From IMG/VR virus record IMGVR_UViG_2751185959_000005: a DNA stretch of 8,696 nucleotides; one strand, given 5' to 3'. Made by a program: the position numbers. Positions 3,001 to 6,000 of the stretch are shown in pieces (the first letter of the stretch is position 1; each line of letters opens with the position of its first letter). This DNA comes from a virus (lineage: Duplodnaviria; Heunggongvirae; Uroviricota; Caudoviricetes).

Positions 3001-6000
3001 ATACTTCCGGTTATATTTATCGTTGTTGTTGGCTCAGGGGCGCCACCTCGCCTGTTTGTTTTAATGCCTATAGTAGCAGTAATTTTGTTTTCTTGCTTAA
3101 GCAATTTTCGCTCTATAAAATACCTAAACTGCATGTTTTTTTTATTTATTATATTTAATGGCGTTTCAACATCCAAAAATCTATTTTTGAATGATACTCT
3201 CGCAAGACAGAAAGATATCTCTTTAGCTAAAGAAATATCATACACATCTCAAACAAAAGGCATTTCCCTTAACGGAAAATATATATATATATATGGTTCA
3301 AACGACTCAGGAAATATGCTCTCCATGAGCGCAGACACTTTTGGAAAATCTTTTTTTTGGTGGGATGGTGGCAACTATTTTAGGATGGTTGCATTTATGA
3401 ATTACTATGGAATCTGTAATTGCAAACCAGCAAATAAAGAACAAATAGAGAAGATTTATCCAATTGTGAAGAGTTTACCTTCCTGGCCGAATCCAGATTC
3501 GATAGCTGAAATAAATGGTTTGGTGATAATAAAACTATCAGAGAAAAAAGGGTGGCTTCCATTTAATATTTAGCTTTGATAGATTTATTTATTATTAAAG
3601 AGCGCCTCCCTTTTTCAAGCTCAAAATAATACACACATCAATGGATGCAATCACAAATAGACGGAGGGGCTGAATGCCCCTTTAAATACCTTACACTCAA
3701 ATATCTATATACAATCACACTAACCGTTTCTAATATTAGTCAATTAAAAAATTAGCAATACCATTTACAAGCGTTTACCCAAACTTAACACTGAGAATTG
3801 AAGTTTAACCGCCTAATTACATAACACTAGCGACTCTGCTTTTGGGAGGCATGGGTCACTCAGGCCAAATGACATCCGACGGTTTCACGATGAACTACGG
3901 CAAAAGAATATCAGAGCCCTCATTCCTCCCCGAAAGGCTGAGGGATCCCCAGAAAATTTTCATCAGTAAGCCAGCACCATACTTCGGTAAGTGCTGGCCA
4001 ACCGGCACAATATCTTTTCAGGTTGTGCTCGTCGTAGAAGTTCAGGGTTAAATCTCAGGACGTTTTCAGCCAGCGTCAGAAAAGACAATACTCTTCGTTT
4101 TTTGAGACTATTAGCCTGATACTTTAAATGAAATCCTTTATTTTCAAAATGATAACCAAGTAGCCAGAGTACGATACTGGCCAGTGTAACCAGTAGACTT
4201 AATACCAGAAAACGCTCTCCCCTCCGACTTCTGCTCGCCCGAAGGCCAAAACCAAAGCGTTCACTTTTTTCATCCCGAAAGTTTTGCTCTATCTGCATTC
4301 TTCGACTGTACAGTTTCATGATTTTTTTGGCATTAAACTCAGCTGTATTGCTGAATATTAACCATGGTTCTCTGCCTGCGGCTTTTTGTTCTTTTTCCGT
4401 TGTTGGTAAGCCCGGCCTCCCTCTGGCACGCCTGCTTTTTCTGCCTTTAGGTGAATGTTTATAAAGATAAAAATGTCCTTCACACTGCGAGCGTTTTTTC
4501 CGGGCCAGGGTTCCCGTCCCCAGGTATTTTGCCTCTGAACTCCCCCTGCACATTTTTATGTCCAGCCACTTATCTTTGTCACTATCCAGCCTGAACTTCA
4601 CTACCCCCCTGATACGACCAATAAAATCCCATCCCTGTGATTTGATATGACGGAACCATGCACTTTGAAAACCAGCATCAGTAACAATAACAACACGAGT
4701 CCGGGGAGAAATGGCCCCGGAAAGCGCATCCAGAAAAGCGATTTCCACCGCCTCGTTATTTTTTTTTGACGGGAAGACCTGACTCATCAGGGGGATAGAG
4801 CGACCGTCGCAGAGGAGGCTGGCACGAAGGACATGATATTCCTGAAAAGGGTAACCGCTCCAGTCAACAGCGATAACACACCACGACAGTTTATTTGTCA
4901 TCATGGATGTAATATTTTTGAATATCAGAGGGATATCATTATGAAGTCGTTTATTACCCAACAGACAGTCAACGCGTTTTATTTTATCTTTCACGCGAGC
5001 AGGACCGGGTAAATGCCGGCCAATGCTGGTAAGAGAAAGAGATGCGCCACCGACTAAAGCAGCAGCAGAATCAATAATGGCATTTTGTCGATACTGATGC
5101 GTGGAAGCTAAAGCATTACGGAAAAAAGTCTGGCATACTTTACGGGCAGGCATAGAGGTGATCTCATTGAATTTGTTAGCGCAATCAGTAGATCACAAAA
5201 CTCTATGCCTGTCTTCTTTTCTGGGGATTCCTCAGCCTAAAAGGGAGCGGGCTCTGGTCTGGTGAGTATGCAGATCGTAAAGGCTATGACCATGGTGCGA
5301 GAGTGGCAGGTATGCCAGAAAGAGGATGTATTGCCTGAAACTCTAACCTGATGCAGAGACGATTATCTTGAACCTGATTTATTCAACAAAGCCGCTGGCA
5401 GAATGTTACGAAAGTTATCGCGGCCGCAGGCTGATTTGATATCGATACTATCGGTGGTACTGCGGAAGTAAATGCCTATATAGTGCGACTTTGAAAAATA
5501 ATAAATTAATATTGAACTCGTTGATTAATAATCATAAACTTTCAGGCATTCATATTTGCAATGAGTGTTTAAAAATCACACAAAACTGGAGAGCCTACTT
5601 TAAATGTATAATAACAAAATCGACAGCAACAGAAAAATAAGACATGATTGGGTTGATGCTTTAAAATTTCTCGGTATTTTTGCTATATATTTAGGTCACC
5701 TTGGGTTGGGGGCTGGCAAATTGTATCCTTTTGTTTTTAGTTATCACGTCCCACTATTCTTTTTCGCTGCTGGTTTTTTTACTATCAAAAAAAATGACTT
5801 ATCTGTTTTCGATTATATCAAGTCAAAGTTTTACAGATTAATGATTCCATATTTCACTTTTGCATTTTCTATATTAATAATAAACACAATTAACTCAGGT
5901 GAGACGATTGATTATATATACAACCACATTTATGATATAATATATGGTGTTAGAAATAACCAATTCGTAGGAACAATATGGTTTATAAACTGCCTTTTTG

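What the first reader, a model, noticed from the sequence alone, without database searches (positions are those of the whole stretch)
3900..5270. IS10-like element inserted at the centre of a pre-existing palindrome between the gtr operon and the acyltransferase gene, with its transposase 5' end facing the acyltransferase
Seen: beyond the CTGAGG(G/A)ATCCCC termini the flanks remain inverted-symmetric. Removing the element and one copy of the approximate 9-bp duplication reconstructs a hairpin-like sequence (CAGAGCCC...CTCCCCGAAAGGGAG...GGGCTCTG). Established: IS10 prefers symmetric target sites and carries an outward-reading promoter (pOUT) at the transposase-proximal end. Inference: the insertion may have destroyed an intergenic stem-loop, possibly a terminator, and could influence transcription of the acyltransferase gene 365 bp downstream. 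The 7-of-9 duplication suggests the insertion is not very recent.
Basis: partly seen in the sequence, partly recalled or inferred. Interest (0 to 1): 0.5.

Follow-up and report, generated by a model that had tools for sequence, protein, structure and literature searches.

The report
IS10-type insertion in SfII prophage
A known, already annotated insertion sequence (ISSfl9 family, a distant relative of IS10) sits between the sugar-adding and acetyl-adding O-antigen genes of the Shigella phage SfII. It did land in the middle of a small pre-existing palindrome, but that palindrome is a leftover of another dead insertion sequence and not a gene terminator, so the case is ordinary.

Summary
The element is window 3938-5235 (1298 bp), with termini CTGAGGGATCCCC / GGGGATTCCTCAG and its transposase on the minus strand (5153..3963) facing the acyltransferase gene oacD (5604). 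It is flanked by CCCGAAAGG and CCTAAAAGG (7/9).

Eight E. coli genomes carry the IS-free allele.

RefSeq names the element an ISSfl9-family IS4 transposase. It is 35% identical to the IS10A transposase and its ends match IS10A at 12/13 bases.

- The palindrome lies in a relic of an IS903-like element (coding IPPRKGAG), has no T-run on the gtr strand, and folds barely better than shuffles. It is not a gtr terminator.
- No outward promoter scores above background. A conserved hairpin plus U-tract lies just inside the IS end.
- IS-free alleles keep an intact acyltransferase gene, and oacD works in IS-bearing strains.
- Landing on hairpin tops is a trait of this IS clade (6 of 6 reconstructed sites).
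- Imperfect centres of the duplication recur in the clade, so 7/9 is not a clock.

The parts
2113..3573 (+). gtrII, the serotype-specific glucosyltransferase and last gene of the gtrA-gtrB-gtrII operon (context)
   Evidence: ORF. Pfam Glucos_trans_II, 4.7e-30. Annotated gtrII in phage SfII KC736978.
3860..3937 (+). Left piece of an IS903-like (IS5 family) relic. It contains the left outer arm CAGAGCCC (3912-3919), the inner arm CTCCC (3926-3930) and the left copy of the duplicated 9-mer CCCGAAAGG (3929-3937).
   Evidence: Homology to the IS-free E. coli allele starts at about 3860. It aligns to IS903B transposase codons ...HDELRRKKISALIPPRKGAG. PGAP annotates a partial 'IS5/IS1182 family transposase' at the same place in L008 and L045.
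3938..5235 (-). ISSfl9-family insertion sequence (IS4 family, IS10-type ends), 1298 bp. Terminal inverted repeats are at 3938-3956 (transposase-distal, with GATC) and 5217-5235 (transposase-proximal, no GATC).
   Evidence: RefSeq annotates 'IS4-like element ISSfl9 family transposase' for the same locus in E. coli. The boundaries are fixed by the empty site and by an independent 97% identical copy in an E. fergusonii plasmid. Ends are compared with IS10A.
3963..5153 (-). Intact transposase ORF, 396 aa
   Evidence: DDE_Tnp_1, 2.1e-19. NF033591 IS4 family transposase, 362 bits. 35.2% identity to the IS10A transposase. The E. coli copies are frameshifted by a 1-nt deletion at 4759.
3991..4018 (+). 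Inward-facing terminator-like hairpin with a T-run at the transposase-distal end of the IS (GTGCTGGCCAACCGGCAC AATATCTTTT)
   Evidence: Terminator scan. Annotated as a putative rho-independent terminator in KC736978.
5144..5214 (+). Conserved long hairpin over the transposase 5' leader, with the start codon (ATG at 5153-5151 on the minus strand) in one arm. This is the same layout as the IS10 RNA-IN/RNA-OUT region. On the + (outward) strand it is followed by UCUUCUUUUCU (5212-5222).
   Evidence: The 96-nt stretch 5140-5235, which holds this hairpin, folds at -42.9 kcal/mol, z -6.5 on the + strand, and -31.7 kcal/mol, z -5.4 on the minus strand. The sequence is nearly invariant in 13 relatives, with one compensatory A-U to G-C pair. 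The IS10A layout is shown. Rfam RNA-OUT gives no hit here but hits IS10A.
5236..5244 (+). Right copy of the duplicated 9-mer, CCTAAAAGG. It differs from the target CCCGAAAGG by an adjacent CG to TA change.
   Evidence: The same two changes are present in all carriers of this insertion.
5245..5393 (+). Right piece of the IS903-like relic. The inner arm GGGAG (5243-5247) overlaps the last two bases of the right 9-mer copy. The piece contains the outer arm GGGCTCTG (5249-5256) and ends in the IS903 terminal repeat GATTTATTCAACAAAGCC (5376-5393).
   Evidence: 18/18 match to the IS903B terminal repeat. Alignment to IS903B. Blastn matches to IS903 at about 77%.
5512..5540 (+). Best sigma-70-like candidate upstream of the acyltransferase gene (TTGAAC-17-TAAACT). 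It lies 277 bp outside the IS and is not significant on its own.
   Evidence: PWM scan: score 10.1, against a shuffle mean of 8.8 and a 95th percentile of 11.7.
5604..6653 (+). Acyltransferase gene (SfII_25, called oacD in the literature)
   Evidence: ORF. Acyl_transf_3. Annotated in KC736978. Deleting oacD abolishes GlcNAc 6-O-acetylation in S. flexneri 2a (PMC8623282, PMC8973906).

Best explanation
**What it is (shown).** The window is the O-antigen modification end of an SfII prophage of Shigella flexneri 2a, bracketed by inverted IS600 ends. Between gtrII and the acyltransferase gene oacD lies a decayed IS903-like element. An ISSfl9-family insertion sequence, a distant IS10 relative with an intact transposase gene, has inserted into that relic. 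The insertion added 1298 bp plus a 9-bp duplication.

**Why it landed there (partly shown, partly inferred).** It landed exactly on the dyad of a short GC-rich palindrome (CTCCC-CGAAA-GGGAG inside CAGAGCCC...GGGCTCTG). Transposases of this clade choose symmetric targets of the form CCY-NNN-RGG with C-rich and G-rich shoulders, that is, the tops of hairpins. This is the counterpart of IS10's symmetric GCTNAGC preference. The palindrome itself is leftover transposase coding sequence, not a regulatory element of gtr or oacD.

**Likely effect on oacD (inferred, not shown).** The element looks largely insulated. It has an inward-facing terminator at the distal end. At the proximal end it has an IS10-style leader hairpin followed by a U-tract. 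oacD is therefore most probably transcribed from its own AT-rich upstream region (5394-5603), as in the IS-free alleles. The IS would then be a passenger that at most blocks read-through from gtrII.
For: **Identity of the locus.** 98-100% matches to phage SfII, with the transposase and acyltransferase annotated as SfII_26 and SfII_25. IS600 ends bracket the window.

**IS identity.**

**Empty site.** Eight E. coli genomes carry the uninterrupted sequence, identical to left flank plus right flank minus one 9-mer.

**Relic.** An IS903 terminal repeat at 5376-5393 and protein-level colinearity with the IS903B transposase across the palindrome.

**Target preference.**
- About 14 genuine unique flanks of the ISSfl9 group end in CCCC-N3-5-RGG next to CTGAGG (19 are listed; a few of those, including IS10A itself, are spurious pattern matches).
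- All 21 unique flanks of the sister IS end in GCG, and most show an A-run plus CCCGC-N4 before it.
- Direct repeats are perfect in three cases: 9/9 in L012, and 10/10 in L024 and L041.
- The duplication is centred on a hairpin loop in 6 of 6 reconstructed sites.
- The narI terminator is an independently verified empty site for the sister IS.

**Insulation.** Terminator-like hairpin at 3991-4018. Leader hairpin plus U-tract.

**Independence of oacD.** IS-free alleles keep an intact 349-aa acyltransferase ORF. oacD is functional in S. flexneri 2a.
Against: - No transcript data were available, so a contribution of IS-borne outward transcription to oacD cannot be excluded.
- A possible extended -10 (TGGCATACT, 5131-5139, + strand) sits just upstream of the leader hairpin. 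IS10's pOUT is known to read out through its own stem-loop.
- No candidate oacD promoter stands out from shuffled sequence either.
- The right copy of the duplication differs at two adjacent bases. No template for that change was found in the window, so it remains unexplained.
- The target consensus rests on about a dozen independent ISSfl9-group flanks, some of them from rearranged copies.
Confidence: 0.8

Rival explanations
1. The insertion destroyed a working stem-loop terminator between gtrII and the acyltransferase gene, and an IS10-like outward promoter (pOUT) at the transposase-proximal end now drives or boosts transcription of the acyltransferase gene.
For: The transposase 5' end does face the acyltransferase gene, 368 bp away. 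The leader has the IS10 RNA-IN/RNA-OUT hairpin layout. An extended -10-like TGGCATACT lies at 5131-5139 on the outward strand (read from the sequence). No strong terminator lies between the IS end and 5604. Relatives of this IS really do insert into true terminators.
Against: The palindrome is transposase-coding relic DNA, lacks a T-run on the + strand, and has z = -1.5. No outward promoter scores above background. There is no Rfam RNA-OUT match, whereas IS10A scores 85.9 bits. Outward transcripts face a -43 kcal/mol hairpin plus U-tract inside the IS. IS-free alleles maintain an intact acyltransferase ORF with the same 210-bp upstream region.
Confidence: 0.12
2. The symmetric flanks are not target DNA but the outer part of longer terminal inverted repeats. 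On this reading the element is larger than 3938-5235 and there is no pre-existing palindrome.
For: The inverted repeat found by repeat-finder runs 12 nt beyond CTGAGG on both sides. Other copies also show CCCC-N3-4-RGG next to both ends.
Against: The IS-free alleles contain both arms joined directly. The same stretch is homologous to IS903B coding sequence. In copies at least 95% identical, the bases next to CTGAGG differ between loci.
Confidence: 0.02
3. The extra 9 bp at the right junction are not a decayed target duplication. On this reading the element carries a few variable bases beyond CTCAG (for example ...CCTCAGCCTA) and makes a much shorter duplication, or the junction was rewritten at or after insertion by a process typical of this clade.
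For: The centre of the 'duplication' is imperfect in the window, L016, L020 and L047, and is wholly replaced in L046. There it became the exact reverse complement of IS-internal ACCCGCCCATTA. GCG next to the IS end is invariant in 21 of 21 flanks of the sister IS, yet 7 of them lack CGC at the distance expected for a fixed 10-bp duplication. The window's right 9-mer, CCTAAAAGG, equals the perfect duplication of the unrelated L012 copy.
Against: L012 (9/9), L024 and L041 (10/10) behave as ordinary duplications. A 7/9 match in the expected register is unlikely by chance. IS10-type ends begin at CTG. No template for the two changed bases exists in the window.
Confidence: 0.1

Closest known systems
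ISSfl9 (ISfinder name, IS4 family), as annotated by NCBI PGAP
   Same: The identical locus in E. coli FDAARGOS_144, A21 and SCU-124 is annotated 'IS4-like element ISSfl9 family transposase'. The phage SfII record annotates the same ORF as a transposase, SfII_26.
   Different: Nothing found. The ISfinder entry (ends, duplication length, target) could not be consulted, and no open-access paper mentions ISSfl9.
IS10 / IS10A (Tn10), IS4 family
   Same: DDE transposase of about 400 aa. Ends match at 12/13 bases (CTGAAGAATCCCC / CTGAAGGATCCCC versus CTGAGGAATCCCC / CTGAGGGATCCCC), with the GATC only at the transposase-distal end. There is a 9-bp duplication and a symmetric target. The leader hairpin holds the start codon in its 3' arm.
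   Different: Only 35% amino-acid identity. Length is 1298 bp against 1328 bp. The target half-sites are CCY/RGG instead of GCT/AGC (the IS10 consensus is from general knowledge). There is no match to the Rfam RNA-OUT model, and the start codon is at IS position 83 instead of 107.
IS elements that target palindromes: ISRm22 (IS4 family, in REP elements; PMC1525189); IS231A (GGG-N5-CCC target) and IS1397 (loops of REP palindromic units), both recalled from memory
   Same: Insertion at the centre of short GC-rich palindromic or hairpin sequences. The precedent lies within the IS4 family.
   Different: The targets here are not a repeated REP family but unrelated hairpin tops: rho-independent terminators for the sister IS, and a transposase-coding relic in this window.
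IS903 / IS903B (IS5 family), as the target
   Same: The relic keeps the 18-bp terminal repeat and about 77% nucleotide identity over two segments.
   Different: Only about 230 bp survive, with an internal deletion and frameshifts. In IS903B itself the homologous stretch (CCTCCCCGAAAAGGTG) folds poorly, z = -0.6.

Membership tests
IS4 family, IS10-type insertion sequence | DDE transposase of the IS4 type | tested here: met
   Pfam DDE_Tnp_1, 70.5 bits. NCBIfam NF033591 transpos_IS4_2, 362 bits against a cut-off of 152. 35.2% identity over 364 aa to the IS10A transposase, E = 2e-72.
IS4 family, IS10-type insertion sequence | Terminal inverted repeats beginning CTGA..ATCCCC | tested here: met
   Both ends are 12/13 identical to the IS10A ends read from L044. 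The same A/G difference creates a GATC only at the transposase-distal end.
IS4 family, IS10-type insertion sequence | 9-bp target duplication | tested here: met
   The element adds 1298 + 9 bp relative to the empty site. The copies match at 7/9 here and at 9/9 in the relative L012.
IS4 family, IS10-type insertion sequence | Symmetric target consensus | tested here: met
   CCY-N3-RGG with C and G shoulders in about a dozen independent flanks. The duplication is centred on a hairpin loop in 6 of 6 reconstructed sites. The consensus differs from IS10's GCTNAGC.
IS4 family, IS10-type insertion sequence | Antisense RNA-OUT and pOUT at the transposase-proximal end | tested here: inconclusive
   Rfam RF00240 hits IS10A (85.9 bits) but not this element or two relatives at E <= 1. 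No promoter scores above background. An analogous, highly conserved hairpin is present. No transcript data.
ISSfl9 (named ISfinder element) | Near-identity to the ISfinder reference sequence and ends | not testable with these tools
   Only indirect evidence: PGAP's 'ISSfl9 family' label on the same locus at 99.4-99.7% identity. ISfinder is not available here.
Rho-independent terminator (for the pre-existing palindrome) | GC-rich stem-loop | tested here: met
   An 8-bp outer stem plus a 5-bp inner stem; the 68-nt stretch folds at -24.1 kcal/mol.
Rho-independent terminator (for the pre-existing palindrome) | U-run immediately 3' of the stem on the strand of the upstream gene | tested here: not met
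   On the + strand the stem is followed by GTCTGGTGAGTATG. The scan does not call it. Only the minus strand has a weak ATATTCTTTT.
Rho-independent terminator (for the pre-existing palindrome) | Structure more stable than composition predicts, and intergenic origin | tested here: not met
   z = -1.5, with 19 of 200 shuffles as stable. The sequence is homologous to IS903B transposase codons.
IS903-like (IS5 family) relic (for the target DNA) | IS903 terminal inverted repeat and transposase homology | tested here: met
   GGCTTTGTTGAATAAATC matches 18/18 at 5376-5393. Translated colinearity runs over DELRxKxIxALIPPRKGAG and the C-terminal ...MPExVxIA*. PGAP annotates a partial IS5/IS1182 transposase.

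The most novel reading that the evidence does not exclude
The ISSfl9 lineage and its unnamed sister IS (present in about 470 complete E. coli genomes) may form a hairpin-top-specific branch of the IS10-type elements. On this reading they insert almost exclusively into the loops of GC-rich stem-loops, including genuine rho-independent terminators such as that of narI. Their junction 'duplications' are frequently rewritten in the centre. In one case the duplicate became a perfect complement of IS-internal sequence, which rebuilds a hairpin plus T-run around the IS tip. The SfII copy would be one example of a systematic, apparently undescribed way of choosing and remodelling terminators.
Probability: 0.4. 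Interest if true: 0.45.

Novelty: already known. Interest (0 to 1): 0.2.

Why it matters
For the locus itself, little changes. The gtrII-transposase-acyltransferase arrangement of SfII has been in GenBank since 2013, and the acyltransferase OacD (O-factor 10) is known to work in strains that carry the IS.

The useful results are corrections:
- The palindrome is debris of an older IS903-like element, not a regulatory signal.
- The empty-site allele exists in nature.
- The imperfect duplication cannot be used to date the event.

The wider point, if it holds, is that this branch of IS10-like elements homes to hairpin tops and terminators. That would make their insertions predictable. It would also make them likely to disturb transcription termination elsewhere, for example downstream of narI in E. 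coli.

Tried and rejected
- **Longer inverted repeats.** I first suspected that the symmetric flanks were simply longer IS inverted repeats, because plasmid copies seemed to match beyond CTCAG. The empty-site alleles reject this.
- **Rfam.** A scan of the window at E <= 1 gave no RNA-OUT or other match in the IS. A positive control on IS10A worked.
- **Promoter scans.** The consensus scan and my own PWM scan found nothing above the shuffle background, either for an outward IS promoter or for the acyltransferase gene. They cannot decide the transcription question.
- **Templated origin of the CG to TA change.** I looked for a quasi-palindrome template in the right 9-mer copy and found no donor sequence in the window.
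- **L005 as a second test of the duplication.** Its two flanks come from unrelated contexts (a transposase gene and traT upstream), so it is probably a recombinant. The same holds for L034 and L037.
- **Literature.** No open paper mentions ISSfl9. The paper that defined oacD (PMC4187690) is not held. A search for 'oacD' plus 'promoter' gave only unrelated hits.
- **Genome-contig scan.** A scan with the transposase gave only 6 loci. Most independent copies came from pattern scans of metagenome and viral contigs.
- **tRNA scan.** No tRNA was found in the window.
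Full report
**What is in the window.** The window is the O-antigen modification region of an SfII prophage. It holds gtrA (828-1190), gtrB (1187-2116) and gtrII (2113-3573). These are followed by a minus-strand transposase ORF (5153..3963), an acyltransferase ORF (5604-6653), and minus-strand tail-fibre genes. The window matches Shigella phage SfII (KC736978 / AF021347) at 98-100%. There the transposase is SfII_26 and the acyltransferase is SfII_25. 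The acyltransferase is the gene called oacD in the literature. It gives 6-O-acetylation of GlcNAc (O-factor 10) and is functional in S. flexneri 2a (PMC8973906, PMC8623282). The two ends of the window (1-211 and 8486-8696) are perfectly inverted copies of an IS600 end.

**Checking the observation.** The element runs from 3938 (CTGAGGGATCCCC...) to 5235 (...GGGGATTCCTCAG), 1298 bp. Next to it lie CCCGAAAGG (3929-3937) and CCTAAAAGG (5236-5244), which match at 7/9. Further out are the arms CTCCC / GGGAG and CAGAGCCC / GGGCTCTG. The transposase 5' end faces the acyltransferase gene, 368 bp away.

Eight complete E. coli genomes carry the same module without the element: the relic, the acyltransferase gene and the tail-fibre genes, at about 98% identity and behind a different gtr-type gene. 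At the site they read CAGAGCCCTCATTCCTCCCCGAAAGGGAGCGGGCTCTGG. That is exactly the window with the element and the right 9-mer removed. The palindrome therefore pre-existed. The element is bounded by CTG...CAG, and 9 bp were added with it.

**What the element is.** RefSeq annotates the same locus in three E. coli genomes (99.4-99.7% identical over 1.8 kb) as 'IS4-like element ISSfl9 family transposase'. The protein has a DDE_Tnp_1 domain and matches NCBIfam NF033591 (IS4 family) at 362 bits. It is 35% identical to the IS10A transposase.

The ends are of the IS10 kind. IS10A has CTGAAGAATCCCC at the transposase-proximal end and CTGAAGGATCCCC at the distal end. This element has CTGAGGAATCCCC and CTGAGGGATCCCC. 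That is 12/13 at each end, with the Dam site GATC only at the distal end in both elements. So 'IS10-like' is fair as a description of type, but the element is a named, distinct IS and not IS10.

**What the palindrome is.** It is not native intergenic DNA of the gtr-oacD region.
- From about 3860 to 3937 and from 5245 to 5393, the flanks are a relic of an IS903-like (IS5 family) element.
- The 18-bp IS903 terminal repeat is intact at 5376-5393.
- The stretch containing the palindrome is colinear with the IS903B transposase codons for ...DELRRKKISALIPPRKGAG.
- PGAP annotates a partial IS5/IS1182 transposase there in the IS-free genomes.
- On the + strand the stem is not followed by a T-run.
- Its fold energy is only marginally better than shuffles: z = -1.5, 19 of 200; z = -2.8 with mononucleotide shuffles.
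- The homologous stretch of IS903B folds no better than chance.

The idea that a gtr terminator was destroyed is therefore not supported.

**Why the IS landed there.** I collected independent copies from plasmids, species-representative genomes, metagenome contigs and viral contigs. In every copy of the ISSfl9 group, the DNA next to either end reads (G/A)CCCC, then 3-5 mostly A/T bases, then RGG, then CTGAGG.

A sister IS shows the same habit. It is about 62% identical in protein, goes unnamed as 'IS4 family transposase', and is present in about 470 E. coli genomes. Its 21 unique flanks all end in GCG next to CTGAGG, and most show an A-run plus CCCGC-N4 before it. These are the tops of rho-independent terminators.

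Where both flanks are contiguous, the direct repeat is 9/9 (L012) or 10/10 (L024, L041). In 6 of 6 reconstructed empty sites the duplicated bases sit on a hairpin loop.

For one E. coli copy of the sister IS I found the natural empty site. It is the narI terminator, GACCCTGC-TTCG-GCGGGGTTTTTTT.

Precedents for palindrome targeting in the IS4 family exist, for example ISRm22 in REP elements (PMC1525189).

**The imperfect duplication.** The left copy equals the empty-site sequence. The right copy differs by an adjacent CG to TA change. All carriers of this insertion share it: the window, S. flexneri SFBU1023, E. coli ECMA0423 and FDAARGOS_144, and two IMG/VR contigs.

Imperfection in the centre of the duplication recurs in this clade:
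- L016 matches at 7/9.
- L047 matches at 9/10.
- L020 has lost two bases.
- In L046 the expected copy TGCTTCGGCG has been replaced by TAATGGGC, the exact reverse complement of the IS-internal ACCCGCCCATTA. This creates a perfect hairpin around the 15-nt IS tip, followed by T8.

For the window I found no template that could explain the two changes, so they remain unexplained. Using 7/9 as a clock is therefore unsafe.

Independent evidence does show that the insertion is not brand new. IS-bearing prophages in S. flexneri and E. coli differ at about 8 positions in 2 kb, including a frameshift in the E. coli transposase gene. The IS-free alleles are about 2% diverged.

**Effect on the acyltransferase gene.** This could not be tested directly. 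What the sequence shows is as follows.
1. The leader of the transposase gene forms a long hairpin (5144-5214) with the start codon in one arm, the same layout as IS10's RNA-IN/RNA-OUT region.
2. That hairpin is almost invariant across relatives whose proteins are only about 62% identical, and it shows one compensatory pair. Some IS10-like leader control is therefore likely.
3. The Rfam RNA-OUT model hits IS10A (85.9 bits) but not this element.
4. Neither the consensus scan nor my PWM scan finds an outward promoter above background. The best lead is an extended -10-like TGGCATACT at 5131-5139.
5. On the outward strand the hairpin is followed by UCUUCUUUUCU, about 14 nt inside the IS end. That is a terminator-like arrangement.
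6. The distal end carries an inward-facing terminator-like hairpin (3991-4018), which would stop read-through from gtrII.
7. At least six IS-free E. coli alleles retain an intact 349-aa acyltransferase ORF behind the same 210-bp AT-rich upstream region.

My reading, which is inferred, is that the gene has its own promoter and the IS is a largely insulated passenger. I put about 10-15% on a real contribution of IS-borne transcription.

**Verdict.** The element is a known, annotated IS in a well-studied phage. The 'terminator' and 'age' inferences fail, and the 'pOUT' inference is untested and not favoured. The only part with some wider interest is the hairpin-top and terminator targeting of this IS10-like clade, together with the recurrent rewriting of its junctions. 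I could document both but not explain them.

Noticed in passing
window 1-211 and 8486-8696: The two ends of the window are 100% complementary inverted copies of the 3' end of IS600. The SfII remnant (truncated int 192-566, gtr genes, IS, oacD, tail-fibre genes) is therefore bracketed by inverted IS600 copies.
   Followed up: partly
L046 (E. coli 95-3322, downstream of narI) versus L048 (empty site): A sister IS sits in the narI terminator. The left flank is intact up to ...TTCGGCG|CTGAGG. At the right junction the expected duplicate is replaced by TAATGGGCGGG, the exact reverse complement of the IS-internal ACCCGCCCATTA. This gives a perfect hairpin around the IS tip followed by T8, a rebuilt terminator-like structure.
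   Followed up: partly
L023-L043 (IMG/VR contigs); L046 and L047: All 21 unique flanks of the unnamed sister IS (ends CTGAGGAATCCCCAGTAATGGGCGGG) end in GCG next to the IS, and most read A-run + CCCGC-N4 before it. It appears to insert into rho-independent terminator hairpins. It is present in about 470 of 5426 complete E. coli genomes at 1-3 copies.
   Followed up: partly
L002/L013/L018/L019/L022 versus L020; L027 versus L037: The same flanking DNA (for example AAAAGCCACCTCCTCAGGAGGTGGCTTTTCAGAATGCCCCC) abuts the transposase-proximal end in some contigs and the distal end in others. Several copies have flanks from unrelated sites. This points to frequent inversion or recombination at these IS copies.
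   Followed up: no
L009 (GenBank KC736978, phage SfII), equivalent to window 5188-5247: Nine of the 12 differences between the deposited phage genome and the window fall within 60 bp, across the IS leader hairpin, the IS tip (ATGAGG instead of CTGAGG) and the right flank. These look like sequencing errors in a strongly structured region.
   Followed up: no
L008 (E. coli AR_0061) 5576-6632: In one IS-free genome the acyltransferase homologue is itself split by a full-length IS903B, next to the IS903-like relic.
   Followed up: no
window 7455-7631 (minus strand): Sub-threshold Rfam match to IS009 (52.9 bits, gathering score 117, E = 4e-10) inside the tail-fibre assembly gene.
   Followed up: no
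window 3665-3681: A GC-rich hairpin, AGGGGCTGAATGCCCCT, lies about 90 bp after the gtrII stop. The scan calls it as a terminator on the minus strand only. It is a more plausible end of the gtr transcript than the palindrome hit by the IS.
   Followed up: no
L012 2879-3010: A group II intron domain (Rfam RF02012, 72.6 bits) lies about 160 bp from the ISSfl9-like copy in Pseudescherichia vulneris.
   Followed up: no
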